A stretch of DNA of 64,000 nucleotides from a virus, in IMG/VR virus record IMGVR_UViG_3300033508_000321; one strand, written 5' to 3'. Positions 701 to 38,382 of the stretch are shown here, piece after piece (the stretch's first letter is position 1; each line of letters starts with the position of its first letter). The notes beneath the pieces were generated by a model. It was not told the origin of the DNA, did not search any database, and saw nothing but the letters and a program-made list of their open reading frames with translations. Position numbers and translations under genes: made by a program.

Positions 701-2116
701 ATGAGTTTACTAAGCAGAATAAAAAGTGTGTTCGTGGTTGAACCCGCAGCACCGGAAAAAAAGCCAAAGCGTAGAATTGGTGATAACGTTGTAAGTTTAC
801 CATTGTCTAGGTTGCGTCAAGATATAGCATCATGGCGTAATGGTGTGGATATGGCCGAGAACAAAACCGGGTATGATAGGTTTGATTTATACGAATTGTA
901 CAAGGAAATAAAAGATGATGGTCAGGTAATTGCTACCACAGGTTCTCGTACTGATAACATCACTTTGAGCGATTTTTCTATCTACGTCGGTGACGAACAA
1001 AACGATGGGGCGCAAAATTTGTTTGAGCAACGTTGGTTTTTTGACTTTCTGAAATACAGTGTAGAATCATTTTTCTGGGGCGCAAAAATCGTTCAAATTG
1101 ATAGCATAAACCCTTTGAAAATTTCATGCGTACCGGATGAAAACGTGGCAGTGGAATACGATGCCGTAAAGAAACTAGCAACCGGGGGCGTGAGTTCTGG
1201 AAACTTAGTGACATACGTAGGTAACGAGTACGAACCTCTGACGATACCGGTATATAATTCTCAGCATGACTTAGGTATTTTCAACGCTGTAGCACCGTAT
1301 TACTTATGGAAAAAAGTGTTGGGTGCATGGTCTGAATATGCTGATAGATTTGGTATGCCACTTCGTGCAATACATACCGATATAGATGACCCTGAGAGAG
1401 TAAAACACGCACAAGATATGCTCGAAAATATGATAGGTAGTACCTATGCTATTTTTCACATGGATGACAGGTTTGAAATAAACCAACTACCCGGACGTGA
1501 GGGTTTTCAAGTGTATGCAAAACTTATTGATTATTGCGATAGTCAGATAGCAAAAATAATGCTTCGTCAGACCGGTACTACAGATGAGAAAGCATACAGT
1601 GGATCATCACTGGTACACGCTGATGTGCTAGGTTCCCTTGCGAAAAGCGATAAAAAGTACATTCAATACCTGATAAACGATACACTTATTCCTAAACTCG
1701 TTGGTTTGGGAATCGTGCCGATGGGTACACGTTTCTACTGGGATTCATCCGACAACGTGTCTACTCTTGAGAAGGTAAACATCATCCAAATATTGACTAA
1801 TTCCGGGTATAAAATACCTGCCGAATATGTAGAAAAATGGACTGGGGTAGAAGTTGAACACGTTGAAGAAGTTGAACTGACTGAAATCGAAGAACCGGAA
1901 GAAACTACCGCTATCATGGATGTAGAAGATTATATGCCGGGGACGATGCGTAAAAAAAGCCTTGGGATGGGTATTAGTATGTTAACGGTAATGAAAGACG
2001 GTGTAGCAACGCCTAGAGCCTACAAGTTTGACCCGAAAATTTTTAAACCTGCTGATGTGGAAAATTATTTACGTACACATGGCATAAAAGCAACAGATGT
2101 ATGGCACGCACAATAG
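701..2116 (+). CDS. Portal protein (Mu gp29 / DUF935-like)
   Basis: 471 aa. 'YYLWKKVLGAWSEYADRFGMPLRAIHTD' and the overall size recall DUF935 portals. It sits in a Mu-like head gene set (F, G, protease-scaffold and capsid downstream). Confidence 0.75.
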   Translation: MSLLSRIKSVFVVEPAAPEKKPKRRIGDNVVSLPLSRLRQDIASWRNGVDMAENKTGYDRFDLYELYKEIKDDGQVIATTGSRTDNITLSDFSIYVGDEQNDGAQNLFEQRWFFDFLKYSVESFFWGAKIVQIDSINPLKISCVPDENVAVEYDAVKKLATGGVSSGNLVTYVGNEYEPLTIPVYNSQHDLGIFNAVAPYYLWKKVLGAWSEYADRFGMPLRAIHTDIDDPERVKHAQDMLENMIGSTYAIFHMDDRFEINQLPGREGFQVYAKLIDYCDSQIAKIMLRQTGTTDEKAYSGSSLVHADVLGSLAKSDKKYIQYLINDTLIPKLVGLGIVPMGTRFYWDSSDNVSTLEKVNIIQILTNSGYKIPAEYVEKWTGVEVEHVEEVELTEIEEPEETTAIMDVEDYMPGTMRKKSLGMGISMLTVMKDGVATPRAYKFDPKIFKPADVENYLRTHGIKATDVWHAQ

Positions 2117-3445: not shown

Positions 3446-4255
3446 ATGAATAAATTTATCAATACTTTTACCGGTGGTCTGGACTTATTTCACGATGATA
3501 TACGTTGGAATGACTATGCGTACCGTGGTGCTTTGAACAATCTACTGAATAGCTTCGCTATTGATACCAACACGAACTTTGTGATCAGCGGTTGTGTACC
3601 TACCTATACACCCGGTGTTTCATTGGCTGTTACCGATGGGTATATTTACTTGAATGGTGAGGTTTTACAAGTTGAAGCACAAACGTTTTTAAACGACGGT
3701 GCTGATTTCAAGTATACCAAGGTAACTACGTTCGATACTACAGGAAACCGTGTTACGAAAGCGGGTGCATCTGTACAAACTTATCAAAAAAACCGTGGTG
3801 TGGTGAGTGCCGGTGCTGCCGGAACTACTGAGTTGAATGCTCGTATAGTAACTACGCTAATAGACAAAATAAAACTGGCATTAGAACTGACTTACGATAC
3901 GTGGGTACAACCTACGTTTGAATCAGGTTTTGCGCATTCTACCGGCGAAGCAGATTTTGGTGTTTGGTACAAAAAAACCAAAGAAGGGAACTTGTTTATT
4001 CAAGGTGCTATGGTACTTTTAGCGGATAAAACGGGTGACGATCTTTTATTCACTTTACCTGCCGGTTATCGTCCTAGCGATGTTAACACACTACCAGCGA
4101 GTACTGTTTACAGATTCCCGTTTATTGGTGATACTGGCGGTGGCGTAAGTACAAACATTTTGGCCATAGATGAAACAGGCGCAGTTAAACTGGAAAACCC
4201 AGCGTTAACTGGGTACAAGTATTTCTTTAATCACATTATACCTTTGGATGTATGA
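3446..4255 (+). CDS. Hypothetical virion protein (fibre-like?)
   Basis: 269 aa. A purine-rich AAAGGAA lies just upstream of the ATG. The G/T/V-rich composition is typical of fibre or baseplate proteins. Confidence 0.55.
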   Translation: MNKFINTFTGGLDLFHDDIRWNDYAYRGALNNLLNSFAIDTNTNFVISGCVPTYTPGVSLAVTDGYIYLNGEVLQVEAQTFLNDGADFKYTKVTTFDTTGNRVTKAGASVQTYQKNRGVVSAGAAGTTELNARIVTTLIDKIKLALELTYDTWVQPTFESGFAHSTGEADFGVWYKKTKEGNLFIQGAMVLLADKTGDDLLFTLPAGYRPSDVNTLPASTVYRFPFIGDTGGGVSTNILAIDETGAVKLENPALTGYKYFFNHIIPLDV

Positions 4256-4575
4256 TAGTAGTTTTCCCATCAATAATTCCGAACGGGTACAAGGCTATGG
4301 CTTTGTATCCTTTTATTTTCGTATCTGAGCCAAAAGGTACGTACGTATTTAAACTTTTGAGCAAAGGTCTGGAATACTCAAAAGCGGTAGGACGGTGGGA
4401 AAGAATGATTGCGCATGAAAGAGTACACCACAAACAACAAAAAGAATTGCTTTTCATTGGCTTTTTACTTGTATATTTGTACTTTCACTTGCGTTATGGA
4501 TATAGACACAACCCAATGGAAAAAGAAGCCGTACACGGTAGAAAAAAACGCTTTGGCTGGACTGAGTACATATGA
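4252..4575 (+). CDS. Small HExxH metallopeptidase-like protein with a hydrophobic segment
   Basis: 107 aa. It has 'AHERVHHKQQ' (HExxH), a later 'NPMEKEA', and a hydrophobic stretch 'LLFIGFLLVYLYF'. ATGA overlaps on both sides. Confidence 0.5.
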   Translation: MIVVFPSIIPNGYKAMALYPFIFVSEPKGTYVFKLLSKGLEYSKAVGRWERMIAHERVHHKQQKELLFIGFLLVYLYFHLRYGYRHNPMEKEAVHGRKKRFGWTEYI

Positions 4576-5999
4576 TAACAGATAAGGAAATAGAGGAACT
4601 GGTAACAGGTTTGTATAATGGTACGGTGAGCATCTTGCGCTTGCCGCAAAATCTTTTTGCCGCCACTTATCTCGAGTTAATGGGTGGTGTGACTAAAGGT
4701 TTTGGAATACCCGAATTTGAAACACCGGCACACGATGTACTCACTAAGCTAGGCAATAATATCAGCTCTTTTTCCGGCTGTAAGACGTTCAAAGAAACTT
4801 ATGATATGCAGCAACTTCTTTTCGATTCACAGGGCTATAAAAAGCCTTTTAATGTGTTCAAGAATGAAGTAATGACCGTTTACACGAATTACAACGAACG
4901 TTATTTACAAGCTGAGTACAACACCGCTATAAATTCCGCTTTTTCTGCTGCTGACTGGGTAGAATACGAAGCGGATAAAGACATATTCCCACTTCTTCAG
5001 TACAAAACAGTACATGATGGTAGGGTACGGGAAGACCATGCAAAACTGCATAACATAGTGAAGCCGGTAGATGATCCTTTTTGGGATACTTTCATGCCGT
5101 GCAACGGTTGGAATTGTAGATGCAGGGTAATAAAATTAACAGAATTTGAAGCCGAAGAAACACCACTTTCAGAGGATAAGCTAAAAGAACTTACTGAAGG
5201 TATTCCTGATATATTTCAATTTAATCCGGGCAAACGAGGTGAGATATTTTCGCAAAGTCATGATTATTTTAATGCCAATACACTACCGCCAAAGGTACGT
5301 ACGTATTTCACCGAAGAACGCAAAACCAATTTCGGGTTCGTTACACCACCAATACAGGGTGTAACCTCACCGATTCCGCAAAAAATCGTTACTGACTATA
5401 CCCATGCTGTAGAAGAAGTTAACGACTGGTATCTTACTTTGGGTGAAGTTGACCGTAAAATACTACGGCAGTACACAACCTATGGGGATGTTATTATGAG
5501 TAATTACCTACGGGGCACATTAAAAAATAGCGGTGACGTTCGAACTATCATAGATGTTAACGGTGTTCCGGTTCTTGTTGGTGGTGGTAAACCGCCAAAG
5601 AAAACACTGGAAATGATCGCAAAAGATTTAGCCAATAAAACTACCGATTTGTACAAGAAAGCACCTAAATTTGTAGGTACTTCCTACCGTGGGTTGGAGT
5701 TTAATAAACGTAACGATTTATTGGCTAAGTTTGAATCGCTAAAACCCGGAGATGTATTTGTCGAACCCGGCTTTATGAGTACTACACAAACTATAAAGGT
5801 TGGTTTAGACTTCTCAGGTGCTGCGGAAGGTGCTTTGATTGAAATAAAAAATGCTGAAGGCTACGCCATAAAAAGTTTTTCGCGGTTCAAAGGGGAGGAA
5901 GAAATACTACTGATGCCCGATACAGTATTAAGATTTGTAGAAAAAGAACGCATAACAGTAAACAGAGATAAATACATATTTGAGTATGTCAAACAATGA
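4572..5999 (+). CDS. Head morphogenesis protein (Mu F / SPP1 gp7 family) fused to a C-terminal ADP-ribosyltransferase domain
   Basis: MuF signature: 'VHDGRVREDHAKLH...FMPCNGWNCRCRV' (aa 147-186). ART R-S-E triad: 'SYRGL' (R373, nt 5688-5690), 'FMSTTQT' (nt 5778-5786), 'GEEEILL' (nt 5895-5903), plus 'YTTYGDVIMSNYLRG'. Confidence 0.85.
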   Translation: MITDKEIEELVTGLYNGTVSILRLPQNLFAATYLELMGGVTKGFGIPEFETPAHDVLTKLGNNISSFSGCKTFKETYDMQQLLFDSQGYKKPFNVFKNEVMTVYTNYNERYLQAEYNTAINSAFSAADWVEYEADKDIFPLLQYKTVHDGRVREDHAKLHNIVKPVDDPFWDTFMPCNGWNCRCRVIKLTEFEAEETPLSEDKLKELTEGIPDIFQFNPGKRGEIFSQSHDYFNANTLPPKVRTYFTEERKTNFGFVTPPIQGVTSPIPQKIVTDYTHAVEEVNDWYLTLGEVDRKILRQYTTYGDVIMSNYLRGTLKNSGDVRTIIDVNGVPVLVGGGKPPKKTLEMIAKDLANKTTDLYKKAPKFVGTSYRGLEFNKRNDLLAKFESLKPGDVFVEPGFMSTTQTIKVGLDFSGAAEGALIEIKNAEGYAIKSFSRFKGEEEILLMPDTVLRFVEKERITVNRDKYIFEYVKQ

Positions 6000-6192
6000 T
6001 TCACCATTAAGCAAAGATTTTGAGCCGGTTTTTACGCAGTGCAACACGTGTAAACATTTCTATAGGGAAAATGCTGATATTTCGTGTAAAGCATTTGAGA
6101 AAATTCCTATGAGTATTCTCACCAATAAAATAAAACACGATAAACCAATAGAGGGTCAAGAAAACAAAGTAGTGCATGAAAAAGCTAGGTAA
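5986..6192 (+). CDS. Hypothetical small protein
   Basis: 68 aa from ATG 5986 (the track start at 5980 is TTG). Contains 'CNTC'. Overlaps both neighbours. Confidence 0.4.
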   Translation: MSNNDSPLSKDFEPVFTQCNTCKHFYRENADISCKAFEKIPMSILTNKIKHDKPIEGQENKVVHEKAR

Positions 6193-6679
6193 TTTCGGTT
6201 TTCTCGAGGGTAATGCTAAAGGATTTCACGCAACAAAACTTCGTCTTGCGAAAATTCTACCCAATACCGCTTTAAATCACTTTTTAGAAGGGTTTGAACT
6301 GGGTGGGTATAAAACCGATGCATCCGAAAGTGGGTGGCCTAAAAGAAAAAAGAATTACCAAATGAAGAAACGTGGTACACGTGTACCGGGTCAAGTTCGT
6401 AGCGTAAATCGTGACCGTGCTTTGCTTGTTAAATCGGGTGCTTTACGTCGCTCGTTAAAAGTTACAGATTCAAGTCCAAATCTTATGCGTATAGCATCAC
6501 GTGGTATCAGATATGCAGCTATTCATAACTTCGGTCTGATGGGAAAAGCATTCGGGAAATGGCCTTTTAAGATGCCTAAACGTGAGTTCGTGGGTAAAAG
6601 CAGAGAACTAGACTTGAAACTGAATAAAATCATCATAGCCGCTTTTAAACGCTACATGAGTAGCTTAAAAAATCCTTAA
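6176..6679 (+). CDS. Virion morphogenesis protein (Mu gpG-like)
   Basis: 167 aa. 'LLVKSGALRRSLKV', 'YAAIHNFG' and 'PKREFVG' fit the Mu G / virion morphogenesis family pattern as I recall it. Confidence 0.6.
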   Translation: MKKLGNFGFLEGNAKGFHATKLRLAKILPNTALNHFLEGFELGGYKTDASESGWPKRKKNYQMKKRGTRVPGQVRSVNRDRALLVKSGALRRSLKVTDSSPNLMRIASRGIRYAAIHNFGLMGKAFGKWPFKMPKREFVGKSRELDLKLNKIIIAAFKRYMSSLKNP

Positions 6680-6707
6680 AAATTAGGCTTTTAAAACAGT
6701 CTAGGTT

Positions 6708-6715
6708 TATATTTG
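6708..6715 (+). promoter_or_regulatory. TAnnTTTG box
   Basis: TATATTTG, 25 nt before ATG 6741, in a 61-bp AT-rich gap. Confidence 0.4.
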
Positions 6716-6740
6716 CATTAAAATTAAAATTAAAATCTCT

Positions 6741-7292
6741 ATGGTTGTTTTCGATATATACCGAGCCATACGTACAGCATTAGAAGCATCTACCATCATT
6801 GAGCACATTGGCTGGTATAATGACCAGATCAATAATGAAGAGCTTGAAACAGCCTACAATCATCCCGCCGTTTTTATCGAATTTCCTGACAATGCTTGGG
6901 AACAGCAAATGCATAGCACGTTCGGTAATACCGGTGCTCAGGCAAATGGTTACATTCAAATAAACGTACACGTGGAATTTACCCTGCTAAATGATATTAG
7001 TGATGAGGTTGATTACATGGAAAGCATCGTAGAAGAGGTTTATTACCGTTTGGTAGGTCTTTCCGGAACTAATTTTACCACATTCAAACGTTTTGCCGAT
7101 GGTGGCACACCAACAGCATCACGTGTGTACGAATGGGTACTAAAATTTTCAACAACCGGCATAGAAGAAGGTAAAGACTTAGGTGCTATAGATGTAACAG
7201 AGGGCGATACAAACCCAATAGACTTAGTGCTGAACACCGATTTAGATATTGATAACCAGATAATACGTACAGGCGATGGCAATTACATTTGA
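6741..7292 (+). CDS. Hypothetical head-tail joining / tail completion-like protein
   Basis: 183 aa. A TATATTTG box at 6708-6715 lies 26 nt upstream. The N-terminus loosely resembles DUF3168-type proteins (weak). Confidence 0.5.
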   Translation: MVVFDIYRAIRTALEASTIIEHIGWYNDQINNEELETAYNHPAVFIEFPDNAWEQQMHSTFGNTGAQANGYIQINVHVEFTLLNDISDEVDYMESIVEEVYYRLVGLSGTNFTTFKRFADGGTPTASRVYEWVLKFSTTGIEEGKDLGAIDVTEGDTNPIDLVLNTDLDIDNQIIRTGDGNYI

Positions 7293-7542
7293 GCGGCTAA
7301 CTGATAGCCGAAAAATTACCGTAAAGCGAGATGGTATTGTACAAAGAACGTTCGATGTGCAAGACAACGTAAGCATTTTGAGCACTAAAGAGGCGGGGGT
7401 AGAAAACCCAAACATGGTGCGCATGCTGAATAACTTAGAAGTGTACGAGTTTGACTGGAGAGAAGTGACCATAACACCTACCCCCGGTAGTAGAAATGAA
7501 CTGGTACAAACTTTGATCTTGAATTTTTTTTTTTTGACGTAG
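7276..7542 (+). CDS. Hypothetical virion protein, probably the 5' part of a frameshifted gene
   Basis: 88 aa. It ends 7 nt after a T12 run (7524-7535). The -1 frame is open from 7500 through the run into the next ORF. Confidence 0.5.
   Translation: MAITFERLTDSRKITVKRDGIVQRTFDVQDNVSILSTKEAGVENPNMVRMLNNLEVYEFDWREVTITPTPGSRNELVQTLILNFFFLT
7524..7535 (+). promoter_or_regulatory. T12 homopolymer: candidate -1 frameshift or transcriptional slippage site
   Basis: 'GAATTTTTTTTTTTTGAC'. A one-base back-slip (or a T13 transcript) fuses 7276-7535 in frame to 7536-8861. Confidence 0.5.
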
Positions 7543-7667
7543 GTCTTATTGGTAACACCCCTTTAAAAGTAGCTTATTATGAAGCAATTACAACAACTAG
7601 CGGACAAATCACGAAACCGACTGGATCAACAATCCTCCTCGACCAATGGTCTAACGGGGTTGATGCG

Positions 7668-8861
7668 TTGGTTTGTAAAATCGTTGGTGGAAAACCAGAT
7701 TTTGAGGATTCCGGTGTGGACGTTCTCACTTTTGACGTTGATGGTAATTATACAATTAGTGCAGCTTTACCTTCTAATCCGGCAGCATTAATATTTTACT
7801 TATCCGTACCGCTCAAGTTCATGGGTAATTTAGACATAAATTACACCATTCAGTACGTTGAGTTATCTTACACAGGGTTAGACCATAGCACGCTAATAAA
7901 TCGTGACGTTGCGGGAAATCATACACTGGTAAAACCGCTAGCAGATTCAACTACCGCATTTATGATGCAAAAAGCGGATGGTACACCTATATTTATTTTC
8001 GATAGTACGAGTGAAAGTATAAGTATAGCAGGGTTACTTGACGTACTAAAGCAAATTAGTCTTGGTGGAACGGATCTTGTAATATCGGACAATGGTAATA
8101 TAAATGCATACGGCAGCCGTATGATGAGCTTTGCCGATGGTACGCTGTATGACATGCAGGCAACTAACAGGGTAAGTATTGACTTCGTAAATCGTATACT
8201 TCAACGTATGTGGACAATCACCGGAACGAGTAATGACGGTAGCACACGTATTTTACAAGGAAATAATTCGGATAATACCACTGTATTTGCGGTAGACACC
8301 AATGGATTTGAGCTCGATCAGTATGACGACCTATTGCCATCTGCCCAGTGGCTAGCCACCAGCGGAGCACCGAGCCCAGACTTAGTGACTGCAACCATTG
8401 GTGGGGTAGTATTCAGCCTGTGGGCATTCGATGGGGGAAATACAGCAGAAAGTATGACTTCGTACTTCGAAGTTATACATGGGATTGATATTGACATTCT
8501 AAATGCCGATACACTACTTGCAGAAATTCATACACATGGGATGCCCAGTACTAACGCTGCCGGTGTGGTGAAGGTATTTTTCTCGATAGTGTACCTTCCG
8601 GTAGGTGGTGTCCCTCAGTTATTGGGTACTTTCAGCACGCTTATTACCATCGCGCTAAATCAGCAGTATTTCCACAAGCTGGGTGGCGTAGAAATACCTA
8701 AACCTACCTCCGGTTACGGTATTGGTGACCAAATACTGGTGAAGTATGAGCGAAAGCCTAACGATGCTCAAGATACATACGGTGCAGACTGGCTATTCTT
8801 GCAGTGTGCGTTGCATATGCCATTCAATTCCAGAGGTAGCCGCCAAAGATATGTGAAGTAA
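7668..8861 (+). CDS. Hypothetical virion protein, probably the 3' part of a frameshifted gene (frame open from 7500)
   Basis: The first start in this frame is TTG 7668. The frame has no ATG, GTG or TTG between the stop at 7497-7499 and 7668, although that stretch reads like protein ('DVGLIGNTPLKVAYYEAITTTSGQITKPTG'). Confidence 0.6.
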   Translation: MVCKIVGGKPDFEDSGVDVLTFDVDGNYTISAALPSNPAALIFYLSVPLKFMGNLDINYTIQYVELSYTGLDHSTLINRDVAGNHTLVKPLADSTTAFMMQKADGTPIFIFDSTSESISIAGLLDVLKQISLGGTDLVISDNGNINAYGSRMMSFADGTLYDMQATNRVSIDFVNRILQRMWTITGTSNDGSTRILQGNNSDNTTVFAVDTNGFELDQYDDLLPSAQWLATSGAPSPDLVTATIGGVVFSLWAFDGGNTAESMTSYFEVIHGIDIDILNADTLLAEIHTHGMPSTNAAGVVKVFFSIVYLPVGGVPQLLGTFSTLITIALNQQYFHKLGGVEIPKPTSGYGIGDQILVKYERKPNDAQDTYGADWLFLQCALHMPFNSRGSRQRYVK

Positions 8862-8898
8862 AAACACTTAAAAATTCTGATATTTCCCCCGCCACCGT

Positions 8899-8906
8899 TA
8901 GCTTTG
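8899..8906 (+). promoter_or_regulatory. TAnnTTTG box
   Basis: TAGCTTTG, 19 nt before ATG 8926. Confidence 0.4.
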
Positions 8907-8925
8907 AACCATAAAAATTAAAATC

Positions 8926-9633
8926 ATGGATATTCTATCTTTTTTCAAGTGGACTAACGAATTTTTGGCATTAATCGTTGCCATTGGTGGTAGTGGCGCT
9001 ACACTTTTTGGCCTTATATACAGTCACTTGAAACGTCAAAAAGCGGAGGAAAGCATCGCTGAGAAACTCAGTAGTATTGACTTACAACAAAATGAGAAAT
9101 TACAACAGATGGACGCAAGCGTACAAGAATTGGCTGTTATCGTTACCAACACGCAAGAGATTTTAAATATATTGCAAAAGGAAAAGCTAGATAAGGCTTT
9201 TTTGGATAACCTCAAAGTAAAAATTTCTGATTTGGGTGATACGATTATGAAGGTACATCACCTAGATAATGCTTTCGAAAGTCTGATAGTAGAAGCAACC
9301 GAAAAAGCGGGTAGTGTGTTCAAGGATATTTGGCGCACAGGTTACGTGAATTGGGATACTGAGGTACTAGCACGAAAAATTACATCTGCTATGCGTAGCC
9401 TACGTACTTATTACACTGGACACGTGGTTACACCGCCAGAGGTTATCGAAGAAATTCAACGTAGGGTTGCACAACCAGCCATAAAAAGGTTGCTTACCAG
9501 TTTGGAAATGTTCAAATCAGGTCAGTACAATGGTTCTACATCAAAAAAGTACGAGGAAGTAGTACTGAATTTTTGCCGGGAAATGATTGAAGGCGGTATA
9601 GAAATAAATCATTCTATTCAAAAGCGGACTTAA
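8926..9633 (+). CDS. Membrane-anchored helical protein, function unknown
   Basis: 235 aa. An N-terminal TM helix 'FLALIVAIGGSGATLFGLIY' is followed by a heptad-rich helical region. It has its own TAGCTTTG box at 8899-8906. Confidence 0.6.
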   Translation: MDILSFFKWTNEFLALIVAIGGSGATLFGLIYSHLKRQKAEESIAEKLSSIDLQQNEKLQQMDASVQELAVIVTNTQEILNILQKEKLDKAFLDNLKVKISDLGDTIMKVHHLDNAFESLIVEATEKAGSVFKDIWRTGYVNWDTEVLARKITSAMRSLRTYYTGHVVTPPEVIEEIQRRVAQPAIKRLLTSLEMFKSGQYNGSTSKKYEEVVLNFCREMIEGGIEINHSIQKRT

Positions 9634-10129
9634 GGTCAGTTAACACTTTTTGAGTGAGCGTATCTGGTAAGAATTTGCCGGATATTTTTATTTCCGTTTT
9701 TTCGATGCCGTTTGCTATGAATGTACCTACTTCGATTTTATCAAGATTCTTAGTGTATTGGATTACCTCGTCAAGTAGTTCATCATTTAAACAGCGTACC
9801 TCTGGCTGTAGCCAATCGTAATGATAGTGGTAAGCCTTCAAAACACCGTCAATAAACTTATAGGTTGATTTTACGATTTTAGGAATTTTCACATCCTTCG
9901 AATAAAAATAAAGTCTGGCGGTGGTAGGTGTGATGCTGTACATATCGGCAACCTCTTTCAAGTGATCCGGGTAGCGAAATGGTTTTTTATCTATGCTGTG
10001 CTGAATAGCTCGATCCCGCATTTCCATTTTTATTGCGTAGATAAGCATACTACGATCTGATACTAAACCGCATTCAATCCCATCCCGGATAGTTGGTACT
10101 GTATCGAAAACAAGCCTATGGTATTTCAT
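9614..10129 (-). CDS. Putative HTH DNA-binding regulator (only convincing minus-strand gene)
   Basis: 171 aa with an ATG start. HTH-like 'LKEVADMYSITPTTARLYF'. Convergent 20-nt overlap with 8926-9633. Divergent from 10233 across a 103-bp AT-rich gap that carries a 12-bp inverted repeat. Confidence 0.6.
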   Translation of the reverse strand: MKYHRLVFDTVPTIRDGIECGLVSDRSMLIYAIKMEMRDRAIQHSIDKKPFRYPDHLKEVADMYSITPTTARLYFYSKDVKIPKIVKSTYKFIDGVLKAYHYHYDWLQPEVRCLNDELLDEVIQYTKNLDKIEVGTFIANGIEKTEIKISGKFLPDTLTQKVLTDLKSAFE

Positions 10130-10157
10130 GAAAAATATTTTTTTGTAAAATTAAGTG

Positions 10158-10221
10158 AATTTTAACAAAAATGTATAAAAATTTTGTATCGGGCACGCTA
10201 AGAATTTACTTTGTTAAAATT
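10158..10221. repeat. 12-bp perfect inverted repeat AATTTTAACAAA / TTTGTTAAAATT in the divergent control region
   Basis: Arms at 10158-10169 and 10210-10221 with a 40-bp spacer. Each arm contains the TTAACAA half-site. Confidence 0.8.
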
Positions 10222-10232
10222 TTGTTATTGAT

Positions 10233-11417
10233 ATGATACAAAACGCAAAAAATGCTACTCTAAAGAACGGCGTGTACAGCATTAACATCTTTGGCGAAAT
10301 CAGAGATTCAAGTTGGTTAGCTGAGGTTATTGATATGTGTCAACGTGAAACTGACATAAGCACTATAGAGCTGCGCATTAATTCTACGGGTGGTTACGTG
10401 GTGGATGGTTTTTCCGTTGTTTCTGCTATGCTAAATTCAAGTAAGCCAATACGTACCGTGAATGAAGGTGTGGCCGCTTCTATTGCCGCTGTTATTTTCT
10501 TAGCCGGAAACGAACGTTGGATGCGTGATTATGCAAAAGTAATGATTCACGATCCCAGTATGTGGGGCGAAGAAATCGAAAAAATGCCCGATGGTAAAAA
10601 CAAAACCGGGTTAATAAATCTTCGTGAAATGATAGCGCAGTTTATCACGTCACAAAGTGGAATGAACCTACCTACCGTACGTAAGAAAATGAATGATGAA
10701 ACTTGGTTCACCGCACCTGAGTGCAAAGAACTGGGTATGGTAGAAAAGATACTCACTACCAAACGGAAAGTAGCACTGCCCGAAAATTCAATGGATGCTC
10801 TCTTAATGGCAACTAATATACTTAATTTTAACAATTTGAATATGATTCGTGAATTTTTTAACCTGCCAGAGGACGCTTCGGAAGAAATGATCCTCGATGC
10901 GGCTAAAAACTTGCAAAACGAAGCAGCAGAGGCAAAAGGCAAAGTTTCAGAAATGGAAAACAGCCTAAAAGACTTGAATGCTTCAATAGAGAGTTTGAAT
11001 GCCAATGTGACAAACAAAAATTCGGAAATCGAAAATTTGAAAGCCGAAAACGCTTCAAAACTCGAGGCAGTTACAAACGAACTTACCAGCGCAAAAAACG
11101 AACTGGAACAGTTGAACGGTGTTGTAGCTGAGCAAGAGGTAGAGGCCGCAATAAAAGCCGGAAAATTCACCGAAGCCGATAAAGAAACGCTGCTCGTATC
11201 TGCCAAAAACAACTTGGATACTTTCCGCAAAATCGCTGCCAGTGTACGCACTAACGTACCAAAGATTACTGACGTGATTAACAAACCTGCGGTTACTGAA
11301 TCCAAAAATGATTGGGGCTACAGCGAATGGTCTAAAAAAGACCCAGAGGGTTTGAAAAAACTGCAAGCAGAGAACCCTGCAAAATTCAAAAATTTACTTG
11401 ACAAATACCTAAACTAA
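10233..11417 (+). CDS. Prohead protease (ClpP / S14 family) fused to a coiled-coil scaffold domain
   Basis: 'INSTGGYVVDGFSV', 'GVAASIAAVIFLAG' (Ser) and 'KVMIHDPS' (His) are ClpP-type motifs. The C-terminal 190 aa are heptad-rich (E/K/N/L). Confidence 0.8.
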   Translation: MIQNAKNATLKNGVYSINIFGEIRDSSWLAEVIDMCQRETDISTIELRINSTGGYVVDGFSVVSAMLNSSKPIRTVNEGVAASIAAVIFLAGNERWMRDYAKVMIHDPSMWGEEIEKMPDGKNKTGLINLREMIAQFITSQSGMNLPTVRKKMNDETWFTAPECKELGMVEKILTTKRKVALPENSMDALLMATNILNFNNLNMIREFFNLPEDASEEMILDAAKNLQNEAAEAKGKVSEMENSLKDLNASIESLNANVTNKNSEIENLKAENASKLEAVTNELTSAKNELEQLNGVVAEQEVEAAIKAGKFTEADKETLLVSAKNNLDTFRKIAASVRTNVPKITDVINKPAVTESKNDWGYSEWSKKDPEGLKKLQAENPAKFKNLLDKYLN

Positions 11418-11424
11418 ACAAGCA

Positions 11425-11781
11425 ATGAGCGCAGATGCTAATTCTCATTTTGTAAGTTTTCCCTTCGGAGGTTTCGAAGAGGTAGACTTGACCGCTACGG
11501 GTGCACAAGCTATCGCCGTTGGTGGTAGTAACCTCTTAATAGATGGTGTATCGACCGTAGCTACTGGAAATAGAACCCTAAACCTGACCGTTGGTAGCAA
11601 CGTGACCGTGGGTACTGCTATTTTCCTGAAATCGAAAACCACTGGCACAGAAACTACCGTATTTGGCACAGGTTTCACAGCCCCTACTATTACCGGTGTA
11701 GCTGGTAAAACTTTCTCATGTATGTACGTTTACGATGGTGCGGCTTTCCGCCCTGTTGGGACAGCAGTTCAAAACGACTAA
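11425..11781 (+). CDS. Hypothetical head protein (decoration or auxiliary, by position)
   Basis: 118 aa, G/T/V-rich. Lies between the protease-scaffold and capsid genes. Confidence 0.45.
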   Translation: MSADANSHFVSFPFGGFEEVDLTATGAQAIAVGGSNLLIDGVSTVATGNRTLNLTVGSNVTVGTAIFLKSKTTGTETTVFGTGFTAPTITGVAGKTFSCMYVYDGAAFRPVGTAVQND

Positions 11782-11794
11782 TATTTAATCGAAT

Positions 11795-12712
11795 ATGGCA
11801 ACAGAAGTATTAAAAAGGTTGTTTAGCCGTGAAATCGCATCAAACCTTTTTCCCGACAACCAATTTTACAAGTATTCAAAGCTCGTTGGTGGTGTAAACC
11901 CTGACGTGGCCGTGGTAGAAATACCAAACGCAGGTGCAGTTCCTACTGTAGTAGTTAACCCTACCGTTTACCCTTTGCAGATTGTAGAGCGTAAAGACGA
12001 CCGCCAAACTTTCAACGTGGATTTGTTTGCAACAAAACCTACCCTTTTGACTGACGAAAATCAGTTGGTTGTAAGTTACGACAAACGTGCCGATGTGTTG
12101 AAAGACCATACAAGTACTTTGAATAGCGAAATCGCTTTTCGTATAGCTCACGCATGGGCAAGTGGTATACCCGCAGGTGGACTTTTCCCAACAACCGGTA
12201 CAACTACCCGTAGTGCTTCACTACCCTCAGCAACCGGTACACGTAAACGTGCAATCGCTGCCGACATACAAAAAATTCAGGAATACATGGACAAACAAGA
12301 CGTGCCAATGGATGGCCGTTACGCTGTTCTACCTGCTGAATTGTATGGTGACCTTGCATTGGTTGACGAGTTTATCTCGTACGACAGACGTGGTTTGGTT
12401 GACATGGTGAAAATGGGTCTGATTGGTGAGATTTACGGTTTCCGTATCTTCAAACGTAGCTCAGTGGTTCTTGCAAACGCTTCTAGTGGTGCATTGAAAG
12501 CCATAGGTGCTGCTGCCGCAACTACCGATTCATACGCTGGTCTTTTCTGGCATGAATCTTTTGCTTGGAGAGCAGAAGGAAACGCAAAAATCTACATTAA
12601 CCCTGATCAAGCCGAGTACCTTGGTACTGTTATGAACGCCGCAGTTCGTGCCGGTGGTGCTACTTCTTACCTTGACGGTAAAGGTGTTGCAATGCTTTAT
12701 CAAGCAAGCTAA
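11795..12712 (+). CDS. Major capsid protein (Mu gpT-like size and position)
   Basis: 305 aa, immediately after the protease-scaffold in a Mu-like head module. No search was run, so the call rests on position, size and composition. Confidence 0.65.
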   Translation: MATEVLKRLFSREIASNLFPDNQFYKYSKLVGGVNPDVAVVEIPNAGAVPTVVVNPTVYPLQIVERKDDRQTFNVDLFATKPTLLTDENQLVVSYDKRADVLKDHTSTLNSEIAFRIAHAWASGIPAGGLFPTTGTTTRSASLPSATGTRKRAIAADIQKIQEYMDKQDVPMDGRYAVLPAELYGDLALVDEFISYDRRGLVDMVKMGLIGEIYGFRIFKRSSVVLANASSGALKAIGAAAATTDSYAGLFWHESFAWRAEGNAKIYINPDQAEYLGTVMNAAVRAGGATSYLDGKGVAMLYQAS

Positions 12713-12930
12713 TGACCGAATTAACAAAACTATCCGGGGCGTATTTTGAAAAAGATACGTCTCTGGAGGTTATGTTTGCAACCTCTGATGGAAATTTCTT
12801 TTACCAAGAAACATATGCTACTGAGCATTCGAGGAAAAAAGGGATTGAAAAAATCAAAATAACCCGGGAAGACTGGGAAAAAAGTAAAAACATACCCAAA
12901 ATAAACAAAAATGGCATTAACAATAAATAA
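12712..12930 (+). CDS. Hypothetical protein
   Basis: 72 aa. TAATG overlap with the capsid gene stop. Confidence 0.45.
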   Translation: MTELTKLSGAYFEKDTSLEVMFATSDGNFFYQETYATEHSRKKGIEKIKITREDWEKSKNIPKINKNGINNK

Positions 12931-14524
12931 GAGTGCTAACGGTTTGGGAAGGCTACTGCCCGGTACTTCTCATGTATCGGGTTTGCTTTTTTACAGCAAT
13001 ACCTTACCGTCAGGCTTTTCATCTGGTAGCCGTATCAAAAAACTGTATTCATTACAGGATGCGGTGAATCTGGGTATAACTGGCAATAGCTCCGATGAAA
13101 CGAAAGCCGCAACCGGTGGAACAGTCTTGATGACTGCCGTAGGTTCAAGTGGTGACGTTTCTAGTATCACTGTTAACGGTGGTGTATTGGGTTCGTATAC
13201 GCATGGTGCTAGTGAAACTACCACTACCCTAGCTACCGCCCTTGCCGCCGCAATTAACACCAACACGTTTAAACATGGGTGGACTGCTTCATCTGCAACC
13301 GCTACCGTGACCGTTGTACCGCCTACCGGCTTAGGTGCTTTCTCTCTTACTTTGGCTCTGGCTACAAGTGGTACAGCAGCAGCTACCGTTACTCAATTAA
13401 GTGGTGGTGCGAGTTCAAAACTTGATCCGTTGTATTATCACATTTCCGAATTTTTCCGCTTAAATTCTCAGGGTATTCTTTACGTTGGTATTTATGCTGA
13501 GGGTTCGTACACTGGTGCTGAAATAAAAACGCTGCAAGATTACTCAGGTGGTGAGATAAACCAAATAGCTGTATACGTACCCGCCGTTACTTTTGCTTCG
13601 AGCCTTGTAACTGCTTCACAAACTTACGTAGATACCGTATACAACGAAGGTAAACCTTTGATGGTTACTTTAGCCGCCGATTTTACCTCACTTGCTATAG
13701 CTACATTGCCGAACATTACTACTTTGGACAGTGAAGGTGTACACGTGAATATTGGTGTAGATGGTTACTGGACTAGCCCCGTTTGGGCAGCAGCCGAAAC
13801 ATACGTTACCGGAACTCTGGTTAACTTCTGCGGTAAGATTTACAGCGCAAAGAGTAACGCAACCGGTGCTCCACAAAGCCCGTTGAATACTCAGTATTGG
13901 GCTGAAATCAGCAAAAACTATCAGGCTATCTTTGGAAAATCCGTACCCGCTCTAGGTACTGTACTCGGTGCAATGTCATTGGCGAAAGTTAGTGAAAATA
14001 TCGGATGGGTACAGAAATTTGACCTCTCAGGTACAAACGTATTTCAAAGTGGCGGTCTGGTATTTGGTACTGCTTATCGTGATTTAACAGAAAATCAGAA
14101 AACCGATATTACCAATAAGCACTATACGTTTATTGAAACTCACTACGGTATTTCGGGTAGTTATTTCACCGATTCGTGGACTGCTACACTTCGTACTAGC
14201 GATTATGCAACGATTGAAAACAATCGTACAATTAACAGTCTGATACGTAGTGTACGCCCAGAGGTTTTGCCCTTGCTCAAATCACCTTTGTTTGTTACAA
14301 GTGCGGGTAAACTTACCAATGGCACAGTGGCAATCTTCGAAAATTCCGTGAAACGTGGTGCAGATGTGCTCACAACTTCGCAGGATATAAGTGCTTACAG
14401 TGTACTCATTAACCCGGATCAAGATGTGTTAACTACTTCGCAAGTTGTGGTGACGCTTCGTGTTGTACCGGTTGGTGTTGCACGTGAGATAGTTGTTAAC
14501 ATTGGATTTACAACCGCATTATGA
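12911..14524 (+). CDS. Tail sheath protein (by position)
   Basis: 537 aa, followed by a tube-sized gene, a frameshifting chaperone pair, the tape measure and spike/wedge genes. This is the canonical contractile-tail order. Confidence 0.55.
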   Translation: MALTINKSANGLGRLLPGTSHVSGLLFYSNTLPSGFSSGSRIKKLYSLQDAVNLGITGNSSDETKAATGGTVLMTAVGSSGDVSSITVNGGVLGSYTHGASETTTTLATALAAAINTNTFKHGWTASSATATVTVVPPTGLGAFSLTLALATSGTAAATVTQLSGGASSKLDPLYYHISEFFRLNSQGILYVGIYAEGSYTGAEIKTLQDYSGGEINQIAVYVPAVTFASSLVTASQTYVDTVYNEGKPLMVTLAADFTSLAIATLPNITTLDSEGVHVNIGVDGYWTSPVWAAAETYVTGTLVNFCGKIYSAKSNATGAPQSPLNTQYWAEISKNYQAIFGKSVPALGTVLGAMSLAKVSENIGWVQKFDLSGTNVFQSGGLVFGTAYRDLTENQKTDITNKHYTFIETHYGISGSYFTDSWTATLRTSDYATIENNRTINSLIRSVRPEVLPLLKSPLFVTSAGKLTNGTVAIFENSVKRGADVLTTSQDISAYSVLINPDQDVLTTSQVVVTLRVVPVGVAREIVVNIGFTTAL

Positions 14525-14958
14525 ATACAGTACCCTTAATTAATGGCCGTGCGTACGACTATGCATCCATTGAGTTGATTTTAGCAGGTTCGCCGCTAGT
14601 TTCCGTTTCTTCTATCTCATACGTAGAATCACAGGAAAAAATGAATAACTACGGTTTGGGTACATTACCAACAAGCCGTGGCCGTGGTACGAAAGAAGTG
14701 AGCGTATCTATGGACATTTCAATGAATGAGGTTGAAAACCTACGTACTGCCGTGTTTGCTTTGGATTCACTCAGCAAAGGTTCTTTGCTTTCTTTACCCG
14801 CTTTCGATATTTTGGTTTCGTTCTTCAATGGTCAAAGTGTAGTGGTTCACACAGTGAAAAATTGTGAATTTACTGACGATGGTGTTGAAGGTTCAACCGG
14901 TGATGGTGAGCTGAAACGTTCTTTCAATTTGATTGCTTCACACGTGGAATACCGATGA
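14521..14958 (+). CDS. Tail tube protein (by position)
   Basis: 145 aa. ATGA overlap with the sheath gene. Directly upstream of the chaperone and tape measure genes. Confidence 0.55.
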   Translation: MNTVPLINGRAYDYASIELILAGSPLVSVSSISYVESQEKMNNYGLGTLPTSRGRGTKEVSVSMDISMNEVENLRTAVFALDSLSKGSLLSLPAFDILVSFFNGQSVVVHTVKNCEFTDDGVEGSTGDGELKRSFNLIASHVEYR

Positions 14959-15263
14959 AAAAAACAAAAGTAATTCGCAAAGAGGCTTTGCCGGTACAAG
15001 CGTTTGAAATCGTGGTGAGCGGTGTAGCATACGAATATGTTATACAGCAACCTACCTTTGAACAGCTATCACTAGCTACCTCGCAGATGATAAAATCAGG
15101 TGGTACTATGGATGTAGTTTCGCCCGGAAAAATCATTTTCGATACGTGTTGTGTAGAGCATACCGAAGGTATGGAATTAGAACCCTCAGTACTCATAAAA
15201 ATCTGTATAGGTTTAACGACCGAATATGTACAGGGTTTTGATTACGAGATTAAAAAAAAATAG
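14955..15263 (+). CDS. Tail assembly chaperone (G-like, short product)
   Basis: 102 aa. It ends '...EIKKK*' on the A9 run at 15252-15260, just upstream of the tape measure gene. Confidence 0.7.
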   Translation: MKKTKVIRKEALPVQAFEIVVSGVAYEYVIQQPTFEQLSLATSQMIKSGGTMDVVSPGKIIFDTCCVEHTEGMELEPSVLIKICIGLTTEYVQGFDYEIKKK

Positions 15264-15430
15264 ATGTTGAAACGCTGCCGGAGGCTGTTAGTTTCCGGCA
15301 CGTTTTCGCTCTTATCCGCTTTTACTATCACGTTAATCCCGAAGATTTGGACATGGAAACATACGTAAAATTACTTTCAGAATTGACTTGGTTAAGCAAA
15401 GTGGGTGTTCTTGGTGTAAAACTTTCATAA
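14955..15430 (+). CDS. Tail assembly chaperone, -1 frameshift product (GT-like)
   Basis: A -1 slip on the A9 run gives '...KKKIDVETLPEAVSFRHVFALIRFYYHVNPEDLDMETYVKLLSELTWLSKVGVLGVKLS*', ending at TAA 15428-15430 (I translated this by hand). Confidence 0.6.
15252..15260 (+). promoter_or_regulatory. A9 slippery run for the chaperone -1 programmed frameshift
   Basis: 'ATTAAAAAAAAATAG'. The -1 frame stays open for 56 further codons. Confidence 0.6.
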
Positions 15431-15456
15431 TGTTACTCTTACCAGTAACATTTTTA
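15431..15456 (+). terminator. Weak hairpin plus T-run between the chaperone and tape measure genes
   Basis: TGTTACT-cttacc-AGTAACA followed by TTTTTAATTT. The stem is AT-rich, so this could be an attenuator or nothing. Confidence 0.25.
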
Positions 15457-15466
15457 ATTTAAAGCT

Positions 15467-37102: not shown

Positions 37103-38263
37103 ATGACAACAATCAATTTCAACCCAAAACGAACCACTCAGGTTAAAGACGATTTTCGTTTTTACAAAGTAATAGAATCAGCCTTTGAAATTAAGGCAGA
37201 GGAGGTAGCAATACCTTACGAAACGGTGTATTCGAGTCGTACGGGTATGACCATGGCAATCAGAGCACGCATCCCCGCCGATGTACGTATAGTAGATTGT
37301 GAAACCCAGCGTACGAAATTCAACGACAAAATTTCACTGTCACAAATAGGACGCAAAGGCACACCAATGATTATCCTACATGAATGGAAAGATAGTCAAA
37401 CCGTAACCTTTGCAATCAGCGAAGCAAAGTACGGTATATGGAAACAAGCAGAAACTGAACTCAATGTTTTCTGTATATACAAGTCCGACAACACAAAGGA
37501 TCATACATATCAACTTAATGTTCACACTTGTAAGAGGGATAACCTCCGTGAGCTGCATCGCATAATAAGCCCTATGGCTGGGTTTGACCAGCCAAAAATA
37601 GGTGAGGAGTCAATAAGTATATTCAAAAACTTGGTAGTTGACCGCTTCGATGATTATTTCATCACATCGAAGGGGTGTGCGTACTACAAGTTTGGCAGGT
37701 ACAATCCGCTGGTGGAGTTCGATATGCTAATTCCCGGAAATGATTATTGGGAAGTTGCGAACGAGACAGGAATGGATGAGCGTACGTACAACGTATTGAA
37801 GCGCATGCGTACTGAGTTTACGGTGGTTACATATGGTATGCTATATGCCGAAATAACCATGACCCACCTTGAAATAGGTGAGGATTTTGCTGTATTTACA
37901 AATGGTAAAAAACAGCTATATATCTACGAAGGCAGTACACAGTACTATGAGTACGAGGATGAAAAAGGCGAATGCACAGCATCTGAAATGCGTTACAGCT
38001 GCCGCAAAAAAGAAATTTTTTACTTGCGTAGCCAGAATGACGCCGCAAGAATTTTAGAAAAAATAAATAGTATATCAGACGATACCGTTTTTACGGTAAC
38101 TGATTCGTATCTTGCTGGTAACTGCGCGGTTGGTACCAGCAATTTTATGAAAAAATATAATTTAAAAAGCCCCATCAGTATTGGTGACCTAAGGCAGCAC
38201 CCTCAGTATGTCGAGTTGCTAAGTAACGCTAGATTTCTAGCGGTGCTAGTTGGGAAAGAGTAG
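37103..38263 (+). CDS. Hypothetical protein (cargo of cassette A)
   Basis: 386 aa. No motif recognised. Bracketed by cassette A and the GGGGCGAAAGCCCC hairpin. Confidence 0.7.
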   Translation: MTTINFNPKRTTQVKDDFRFYKVIESAFEIKAEEVAIPYETVYSSRTGMTMAIRARIPADVRIVDCETQRTKFNDKISLSQIGRKGTPMIILHEWKDSQTVTFAISEAKYGIWKQAETELNVFCIYKSDNTKDHTYQLNVHTCKRDNLRELHRIISPMAGFDQPKIGEESISIFKNLVVDRFDDYFITSKGCAYYKFGRYNPLVEFDMLIPGNDYWEVANETGMDERTYNVLKRMRTEFTVVTYGMLYAEITMTHLEIGEDFAVFTNGKKQLYIYEGSTQYYEYEDEKGECTASEMRYSCRKKEIFYLRSQNDAARILEKINSISDDTVFTVTDSYLAGNCAVGTSNFMKKYNLKSPISIGDLRQHPQYVELLSNARFLAVLVGKE

Positions 38264-38288: not shown

Positions 38289-38382
38289 AAAACCTAGATA
38301 ATTATGTTTTAATATGAATTTTTTAGATATAGAAGTTTCGGAGAAACTTATACTCTGTAAGTAATTAATAAGCTAAAGTAAC

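What the first reader, a model, noticed from the sequence alone, without database searches (positions are those of the whole stretch)
7276..8861. T12 tract splits a roughly 530-codon virion gene: programmed -1 shift, RNA polymerase slippage, phase variation or assembly error
The frame-1 ORF (7276-7542) stops 7 nt after a T12 run (7524-7535). The -1 frame opens at 7500, immediately after a TGA, and runs through the tract to 8861. It has no ATG, GTG or TTG until 7668, even though the intervening 56 codons read like protein.

A one-base back-slip, or one extra U in the mRNA, gives a continuous protein of about 528 aa. This is separate from the canonical chaperone frameshift 7.7 kb downstream. Homopolymers of this length are also hypermutable, so the gene could switch on and off in the population.
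Basis: seen in the sequence. Interest (0 to 1): 0.6.

Follow-up and report, generated by a model that had tools for sequence, protein, structure and literature searches.

The report
Slippery T-run switch in phage fibre gene
A run of twelve T's breaks one fibre-like virion gene of a Bacteroidota phage; the same run is exactly ten T's and in frame in relatives as distant as about 30-50% identity, so it is most likely a conserved slippage-prone on/off (or two-product) site caught in an 'off' length, not a frameshift the ribosome must perform.

Summary
In detail: T12 at 7524-7535 separates an 88-codon ORF (7276-7542) from a -1 frame open from 7500 to 8861.

It is one gene. A 99.93%-identical metagenome contig has T10 and a single 527-aa ORF, and the tract is the only indel in 13 kb. 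A third assembly of the same phage (99.5%) has T11. A contig from a fourth data set has T10.

In eight diverged lineages of this gene family the site is always xxT TTT TTT TTT (T10, Phe-Phe-Phe). Neighbouring third codon positions are randomised (28% identity), and two lineages prefer TTC elsewhere. A stop follows at once in the T11 frame in 7 of 8 lineages, and within 2-4 codons in the other frame in 7 of 8.

No conserved RNA structure flanks the tract. TTG 7668 lies inside a confidently folded conserved domain, so it is not a natural start.

Best reading: a conserved slippage-prone tract at a domain boundary of an accessory fibre/adhesin gene, here in an OFF length. A programmed -1 shift as the normal route to the protein is not supported. 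A homopolymer sequencing or assembly error for T12 is not excluded, because no raw reads were available.

This scan has reported poly-G switches in other phage fibre genes. This one is poly-T and fixed in length across a family.

The parts
7276..7542 (+). 5' part of the split gene. It encodes the N-terminal domain of about 85 aa, ending in N-F-F-F, plus two off-frame codons (L, T) and TAG.
   Evidence: Identical to residues 1-86 of the intact 527-aa orthologue P0003. The model shows beta strands plus helix 73-85.
7524..7535 (+). T12 homopolymer. It is T10 in the in-frame allele and T11 in a third assembly. It encodes the invariant FFF at the domain boundary.
   Evidence: It is the only indel in 13.2 kb against L001 and in 5.1 kb against L019.
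7536..8861 (+). 3' part of the gene in the -1 frame. It holds a conserved middle beta domain, a poorly modelled variable region and a C-terminal beta-sandwich domain that resembles carbohydrate-binding and ligand-binding modules.
7668..7670 (+). TTG, the first possible start in the -1 frame. Rejected as a natural start.
   Evidence: It is codon 131 of the intact protein. That lies inside the high-confidence middle domain and downstream of three of its strands and of invariant residues.
7348..7385 (-). Protospacer matched 38/38 by a spacer of a CRISPR array in a Bacteroidetes MAG. It lies in the N-domain coding part. It bears on host assignment, not on the switch.
   Evidence: (a contig runs from 7385 into the repeat).

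Best explanation
Positions 7276-8861 are one gene for a modular fibre/adhesin-like virion protein. It has an N-terminal domain of about 85 aa, a conserved middle domain and a variable, glycan-binding-like C-terminus.

At the boundary after the N-domain, the family keeps a run of exactly ten T's (last base of an N/D/S codon plus three TTT Phe codons). Stop codons follow closely in both other frames. Such a run slips during replication and transcription.

Shown:
- The run is T10 (in frame, 527 aa) in one near-identical assembly (L001) and in a contig of a further sequencing run (X2). It is T11 (86 aa plus remnant) in another assembly and T12 (88 aa plus remnant) in this window, with no other indel nearby.
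- The T10 is conserved to the base where flanking synonymous sites are randomised.

Inferred:
- The tract is maintained by selection as a slippage site.
- T11 and T12 are real OFF alleles that make only the N-domain.
- RNA polymerase slippage (or rare ribosomal slips) on the run gives some full-length protein from OFF alleles and some N-domain-only product from ON alleles.

The result is an on/off or dosage switch for an accessory host-recognition fibre.
For: One gene:
- P0003 (527 aa) covers both ORFs.
- L001 is 99.93% identical over 13,162 bases, with 7 SNPs and a single 2-base indel, which lies in the tract.

Length variation:
- L019 from another sample has T11. It differs from the window by 26 SNPs and no other indel.
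- A contig in run X2 spans the tract with T10 and carries the L001 SNP at 7938.
- In the best-holding run X1, a contig ends exactly after 10 T's. That is where a k-mer graph would branch between T10 and longer alleles.
- The A9 run at 15252-15260 is identical between L001 and the window.

Conservation:
- All 8 lineages with the N-domain have T10. That is 24 of 24 Phe codons as TTT and 8 of 8 preceding codons ending in T.
- From each locus's codon use, the probabilities are 1.3e-6 and 6e-3 if lineages are treated as independent.
- The 36 nt upstream are 43% identical, and third positions 28%.
- The T11 frame stops immediately in 7 of 8 lineages (P about 0.004). The other frame stops within 2-4 codons in 7 of 8.
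- Two FF lineages have T7 with the same stop arrangement.

Fibre-like nature:
- Domains are modular and the gene sits at different positions among phages.
- The C-terminal domain matches carbohydrate-binding modules, the Eph ligand-binding domain and tailspike C-termini. BFVD hits are tail fibres.

Published behaviour of such runs:
- E. coli RNA polymerase slips from 7 T upward, and more with length (PMC6260861).
- In T. thermophilus dnaX, an A9 run with nearby off-frame stops gives about 50% short product (PMC1088944).
- Contingency loci have been reported in phages (bioRxiv 10.1101/2025.10.21.683753).
Against: - No raw reads could be examined. All runs were available only as assembler contigs, which hide tract heterogeneity. 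T11 and T12 could therefore be consensus errors at a difficult homopolymer in low-coverage metagenomes (depth about 3-7).
- The hole at 7386-7525 in X1 is also affected by a CRISPR-spacer branch, so the argument that the contig end marks a graph branch is weak.
- The eight lineages are not phylogenetically independent, so the P values are upper-bound impressions.
- Full-length orthologues were found through protein databases, which favours in-frame alleles.
- FFF is also invariant at protein level, so part of the conservation may be structural.
- The fibre function rests on partial fold matches with low TM-scores. The N and middle domains have no structural match.
Confidence: 0.55

Rival explanations
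1. Sequencing or assembly artefact. The phage in this sample really has T10 and an intact gene. T12 here, and T11 in L019, are consensus errors at a long homopolymer in low-coverage short-read metagenomes.
For: - The intact T10 form exists at 99.93% identity.
- Depth in the holding runs is only about 3-7.
- Contigs of the best holder break at the tract.
- Homopolymers of 10 or more are known trouble spots for library PCR and base calling (general knowledge).
Against: - Two independent assemblies from different samples and haplotypes are each off, and by different amounts (+1 and +2).
- No other indel occurs in 13 kb or 5 kb of alignment, and the A9 run is unchanged.
- Consensus errors of +2 are uncommon.
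- The tract is under nucleotide-level conservation, which is the expectation for a genuinely slippery functional site.
Confidence: 0.25
2. dnaX-type two-product expression is the selected function. The T10 run exists to make polymerase (or the ribosome, on U UUU UUU) slip in a fixed fraction of events. Each infection would then yield full-length fibre plus an N-domain-only protein of about 86 aa. The T11 and T12 DNA alleles would be incidental mutants of an unavoidably unstable site.
For: - The length is exactly T10 in all eight lineages, not a spread of in-frame lengths.
- A stop comes immediately in the frame reached by +1 U or a -1 ribosomal slip in 7 of 8 lineages, and a near stop in the other frame.
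- The preceding codon always ends in T, which completes a U UUU UUU heptamer.
- The tract sits at a domain boundary, so the short product is a whole domain.
- The logic matches T. thermophilus dnaX (PMC1088944).
Against: - There are no RNA data.
- No conserved upstream or downstream stimulatory hairpin was found.
- No function is known for the N-domain alone.
- Nearby stops are also what selection to limit the cost of accidental slippage would give.
- DNA-level variation is what was actually observed.
Confidence: 0.15
3. A programmed -1 ribosomal frameshift (or obligatory +1 U insertion) on T12 is the normal route to the full-length protein in this phage.
For: - T12 contains several U UUU UUU/UUG heptamers in the right phase.
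- A -1 slip gives a continuous 528-aa protein.
Against: - The nearest relative and seven other lineages are in frame.
- The T11 allele needs the opposite shift.
- There is no downstream structure: z = +0.5 and +1.2 in the window, and nothing conserved in orthologues.
- The out-of-frame layout is not conserved anywhere.
Confidence: 0.03

Closest known systems
Hypermutable poly-G tracts in receptor-binding protein genes of Campylobacter (Fletchervirus) phages (Sorensen et al. 2021, Cell Rep 35:109214; cited in PMC10877375)
   Same: - A homopolymer sits inside a phage fibre/receptor-binding-type gene.
- Its length differs between otherwise identical genomes.
- The length changes switch the frame on and off.
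   Different: - The tract here is poly-T, not poly-G, so RNA polymerase slippage is also expected.
- The host is a Bacteroidota bacterium from a microbial mat.
- The in-frame length is fixed at exactly 10 across lineages with saturated synonymous sites, and stops lie directly behind it.
- No phenotype or read-level heterogeneity is shown here.
Phage contingency loci in T2/T4 (agt, rIIA) and other phages (Gomez, Barrick and Waters, bioRxiv 10.1101/2025.10.21.683753)
   Same: Simple-sequence runs in phage genes give reversible frameshift mutants through polymerase slippage, proposed as bet-hedging.
   Different: - Those runs are 6-9 bases and were shown by deep sequencing and reversion assays.
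- Here the evidence is comparative: three alleles in metagenomes plus deep conservation.
- The tract is longer, and it lies in a structural fibre-like gene.
Thermus thermophilus dnaX A9 transcriptional slippage (tau/gamma), and E. coli dnaX -1 frameshift (as reviewed in PMC1088944)
   Same: - An in-frame A/T run sits within a gene.
- Standard decoding gives the long product.
- Any +/-1 slip meets a stop within a few codons and gives a defined short N-terminal product.
   Different: - The gene and its biology are unrelated.
- The short product here is only about 16% of the protein, against seven-eighths in dnaX.
- No RNA or protein data exist.
- The stimulatory elements of E. coli dnaX are absent.
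Shigella flexneri mxiE (T9 run, +1 U by RNA polymerase fuses two ORFs; PMC1088944)
   Same: For the T12 allele as sequenced, one extra U in the mRNA would fuse the two ORFs, as in mxiE.
   Different: In mxiE the split arrangement is the conserved design. Here the split is an allele-specific departure from an in-frame ancestor.

Membership tests
Homopolymer contingency locus (phase-variable gene) in a phage fibre/receptor-binding gene | Homopolymeric tract inside the coding sequence whose +/-1 or 2 changes shift the frame | tested here: met
   T12 at 7524-7535. T10 gives 527 aa, T11 gives 86 aa and T12 gives 88 aa.
Homopolymer contingency locus (phase-variable gene) in a phage fibre/receptor-binding gene | Tract length differs between otherwise near-identical genomes | tested here: met
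   T10 in L001 and the X2 contig, T11 in L019 and T12 in the window. It is the only indel in 13.2 kb and 5.1 kb alignments. Assembly error is not excluded.
Homopolymer contingency locus (phase-variable gene) in a phage fibre/receptor-binding gene | Length heterogeneity within one population (reads) | tested here: inconclusive
   Only Logan contigs were available. The X1 contig ends exactly at 10 T's and nothing spans the tract.
Homopolymer contingency locus (phase-variable gene) in a phage fibre/receptor-binding gene | The gene encodes a host-recognition or surface structure | tested here: inconclusive
   The C-terminal beta-sandwich resembles carbohydrate-binding modules and tailspike C-termini, BFVD hits are tail fibres, and the architecture is modular. 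There is no Pfam or PHROG hit and no match for the N and middle domains.
Homopolymer contingency locus (phase-variable gene) in a phage fibre/receptor-binding gene | Reversible switching with a phenotype | not testable with these tools
   Needs a cultured phage and host.
Programmed -1 ribosomal frameshift (tail-chaperone G/GT type, dnaX type) | Two-frame arrangement conserved among orthologues | tested here: not met
   All eight orthologous lineages, and the 99.93% relative, are in one frame.
Programmed -1 ribosomal frameshift (tail-chaperone G/GT type, dnaX type) | Slippery heptamer X XXY YYZ in the zero frame | tested here: met
   U UUU UUU, and U UUU UUG in the T12 allele. The preceding codon ends in T in 8 of 8 lineages.
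Programmed -1 ribosomal frameshift (tail-chaperone G/GT type, dnaX type) | Stimulatory downstream RNA structure | tested here: not met
   z-scores run from -1.3 to +1.65 in eight lineages, and no common fold appears.
Programmed transcriptional slippage giving a truncated product (T. thermophilus dnaX type) | In-frame A/T run of about 9 or more, conserved at nucleotide level | tested here: met
   Exactly T10 in 8 of 8 lineages, while flanking third positions are 28% identical.
Programmed transcriptional slippage giving a truncated product (T. thermophilus dnaX type) | Stops close behind the run in both alternative frames | tested here: met
   Zero codons in 7 of 8 lineages for one frame, and 2-4 codons in 7 of 8 for the other.
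Programmed transcriptional slippage giving a truncated product (T. thermophilus dnaX type) | Heterogeneous mRNA run lengths and a functional short product | not testable with these tools
   No RNA run holding the locus was found, and the single read-laying run was already spent.

The most novel reading that the evidence does not exclude
The T10 run is a family-wide recoding signal. Its nucleotide sequence, not the Phe-Phe-Phe it encodes, would be what selection keeps.

Through polymerase (or ribosome) slippage, one fibre gene would yield two products in a set ratio: the full fibre and its 86-aa N-terminal anchor domain alone. This is dnaX-like logic in a virion gene of Bacteroidota phages. The same run would double as a DNA-level switch that resets the ratio (T10, T11, T12).
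Probability: 0.3. Interest if true: 0.75.

Novelty: new variant of a known kind. Interest (0 to 1): 0.55.

Why it matters
Mutational switches in phage host-recognition genes have been shown experimentally almost only for poly-G runs in Campylobacter phages, and very recently in T-even phages.

This is a poly-T site kept to the base across a diverged gene family in uncultured Bacteroidota phages, with stop codons placed directly behind it. That points to selection for slippage itself. The design can be tested: break the run with synonymous TTC codons.

For annotation, genes of this family that appear split at the run should be joined and flagged, not called as two ORFs or as a TTG-started fragment.

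Tried and rejected
- Near and protein-level searches of the deposited-phage collection found nothing.
- An exact-pattern scan for the tract flank in viral contigs and metagenome contigs found nothing.
- The protein alignment found no relative in genome contigs.
- PHROGs and Pfam gave no family for either part or for the joined protein.
- A search with the first 110 residues found only the protein itself.
- An exact look-up of the 397-aa TTG ORF failed, probably because the first residue is read as L rather than M.
- Intrinsic terminator at the run: rejected for the window and six of the seven other lineages. Only L002 has a strong hairpin in front of it.
- Downstream frameshift stimulator: rejected.
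- A fold search of the N plus middle domains gave only chance-level hits. Atlas hits for the N-domain were below the level that means anything.
- A first N-domain alignment was too diverged to scan viral contigs. The narrower one found only lineages already known, lineages without the N-domain, and one T7 lineage. No out-of-frame allele turned up there.

Full report
**Observation.** The window has T12 at 7524-7535.
- The frame-1 ORF runs from ATG 7276 to TAG 7540-7542 (88 aa, P0001).
- The -1 frame is closed by TGA 7497-7499 and open from 7500 to 8861 (P0002). Its first possible start is TTG 7668.
- On the window alone the run is not statistically remarkable. Dinucleotide-preserving shuffles give on average 4.5 T10 matches. 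It is, however, the longest homopolymer in the 64 kb.

**One gene.**
- A protein search with the downstream part returned a 527-aa protein, P0003. It carries the 88-aa ORF's sequence (minus its last two residues) at its N-terminus.
- Its contig L001 (JGI 3300002026, 15.8 kb) is 99.93% identical to window 3698-16861. The two differ by 7 substitutions and a single indel of two bases, which lies in the tract. L001 has T10 and reads N-F-F-F-D in frame.
- The A9 run at 15252-15260 is identical in both.

**More alleles.**
- A search with the 88-aa product found an 86-aa protein ending in FFF (P0014).
- Its contig L019 (JGI 3300033516, 5.1 kb) is 99.5% identical to the window and has T11. The tract is again the only indel. 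L019 carries 24 clustered substitutions at 6153-6556, so it is a distinct haplotype.
- Laying Logan contigs of four microbial-mat runs on 6500-9500 gave two results:
  - In X2 (2020, another study), a contig spans the tract with T10 and carries the L001 variant at 7938.
  - In X1 (2014, the best holder), no contig spans it. One contig ends exactly after ten T's. In a k-mer graph that is where T10 and longer alleles would branch.
- The X1 result is only suggestive, because a second graph branch lies nearby at 7385 (see Host, below).
- No raw reads were available, so heterogeneity within a sample is untested.

**Conservation of the tract.** Orthologues with the same N-terminal domain were collected from two protein searches and their DNA was fetched.
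- Eight lineages end the N-domain with [N/D/S]-F-F-F: L001, L002-5, L006, L007, L023/24, L025, L026 and L027. They are 32-51% identical to the window's protein over the N and middle domains.
- All eight encode the site as xxT TTT TTT TTT, exactly T10.
- Outside the tract, TTT makes up only 33% and 23% of Phe codons in L002 and L006, and 58-84% in the others.
- Treating lineages as independent, 24 of 24 TTT has P = 1.3e-6, and eight preceding codons ending in T has P = 6e-3.
- The 36 nt upstream are 43% identical on average, and third positions 28%. Synonymous sites are therefore saturated.
- The codon after the run is GAC, CAA, AGC, AGC, GAT, AAT, GAA or AGC. One extra T therefore reads TGA, TAG or TAA at once in 7 of 8 lineages (P about 0.004 at the background frequency of 0.35).
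- The other frame stops after 2-4 codons in 7 of 8 lineages.
- Two lineages with F-F have T7 with the same arrangement (L008/9 and L029).
- The lineages are related, so these probabilities overstate the case. Even so, the contrast with the randomised flanks is plain.
- In the N-domain alignment, the only invariant residues are one Leu and the three Phe.

**No recoding stimulators.**
- Downstream RNA folds no better than shuffles in the window (z = +0.5 and +1.2) and in seven orthologues (z from -1.3 to +1.65).
- Upstream, only L002 has a strong hairpin (z = -3.7). The window and the other six lineages do not.
- No terminator-like site lies at the run.

**What the protein is.** No Pfam or PHROG family matches it.
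- Exhaustive profile search gives 1039 relatives. The middle and C-terminal domains occur separately and in many architectures.
- The AlphaFold model (pLDDT 78) has four parts:
  - an N-domain of strands plus helix 73-85, with the FFF at the helix end;
  - a confident middle beta domain (95-190);
  - a poorly modelled region (195-330);
  - a confident C-terminal beta sandwich (350-520).
- The C-terminal domain resembles carbohydrate-binding modules, the Fbs1 sugar-binding domain, the Eph ligand-binding domain and tailspike C-termini.
- BFVD hits are tail fibres, collagen-repeat fibres and minor tail proteins.
- The N and middle domains have no structural match.
- The gene's position varies among phages:
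  - after the Mu-G-like gene in this window;
  - between tube and tape measure in L027;
  - after the tape measure and three further genes in L008.
- This fits an accessory fibre or adhesin, not a core part.
- TTG 7668 is residue 131 of the intact protein, inside the confident middle domain. It is not a natural start.

**Host and phage.**
- A contig in X1 ran from 7385 into a 29-nt foreign sequence.
- That sequence is the repeat of a CRISPR array in a Bacteroidetes MAG (bin_57, JAIFMY010000006.1; 51 copies in the fetched 8 kb).
- At least seven of its spacers match the window over their full 36-43 nt, four of them perfectly, at sites from 1.4 to 55.9 kb. One is 7348-7385, inside this gene. Shorter partial matches extend to 62.6 kb.
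- The window is therefore phage from 1.4 kb to at least 55.9 kb, and probably throughout. The phage infects that lineage.
- It has a Mu-type portal, MuF, protease, sheath and tape measure.
- It also has its own family-A DNA polymerase, a RecA-like protein and helicases.

**Mechanism.**
- Shown: one gene; three tract lengths among near-identical genomes; base-level conservation of T10 with adjacent stops.
- From the literature:
  - E. coli RNA polymerase slips on runs from 7 T upward, with 5-10% frame rescue at T7/8. Rescue rises with length, and the polymerase is biased toward poly-T (PMC6260861).
  - T. thermophilus dnaX uses an in-frame A9 with nearby off-frame stops to make about 50% short product (PMC1088944).
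  - Long A/T runs are also hypermutable in replication (PMC1088944).
  - Contingency loci exist in phages (bioRxiv 10.1101/2025.10.21.683753; Sorensen et al. 2021, cited in PMC10877375).
- Inferred: the run is kept as a slippage site. T11 and T12 are OFF alleles that yield only the N-domain. Polymerase slippage blurs the switch in both directions.
- Whether selection acts mainly on DNA-level switching or on RNA-level two-product expression cannot be decided here.

**Verdict.** A programmed -1 shift as the designed route is not supported. A sequencing or assembly error for T12 remains possible, at about one in four. Earlier reports of this scan describe poly-G switches in other phage fibre genes. 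This is the same kind of thing with a poly-T run, fixed in length across a family.

Noticed in passing
window 1436-1478, 7348-7385, 34119-34156, 38057-38092, 38165-38202, 38326-38361, 55871-55908; locus L022: A CRISPR array in the MAG 'Bacteroidetes bacterium bin_57' (JAIFMY010000006.1; repeat begins GTTTCAATCCTTGTTATAGTGGAAATGGG) holds at least seven spacers that match this phage at 93-100% identity. Three of them cluster in 38.0-38.4 kb. This assigns the host and shows the window is phage from 1.4 kb to at least 55.9 kb, and probably throughout.
   Followed up: partly
window 15252-15260: An A9 run sits at the very end of the 102-aa ORF (14955-15263), just before the tape-measure gene. It is identical in L001. 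It also serves as an internal control for homopolymer errors.
   Followed up: no
L018:120-419: A deletion derivative of the P0004 orthologue: the first 51 or so residues of the N-domain are fused in frame to the last 24 residues of the C-terminal domain.
   Followed up: no
L002:6155-6222: In this lineage only, a strong hairpin (-23 kcal/mol, z = -3.7) lies directly before the T10 run. Together they look like an intrinsic terminator inside the gene.
   Followed up: partly
L014:3-437: A relative of the C-terminal domain has an in-frame stop where its close relative L013 has Arg (…SGVV*MFLDW versus …SGVVRMFLDW). This is either a nonsense allele or an error.
   Followed up: no
window 6153-6556 versus L019:12-415: 24 of the 26 substitutions between the window and L019 cluster in 400 bases of the Mu-G-like (Phage_tail_S) gene. 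This suggests a recombination patch between strains.
   Followed up: no
L027:3001-4188, L008:6001-7377, L025:3001-4164: The fibre-like gene with the T10 site occupies different places in related Mu-type morphogenesis modules: between tube and tape measure, after the tape measure, and before the Mu-G-like gene. It behaves like a mobile cassette.
   Followed up: partly
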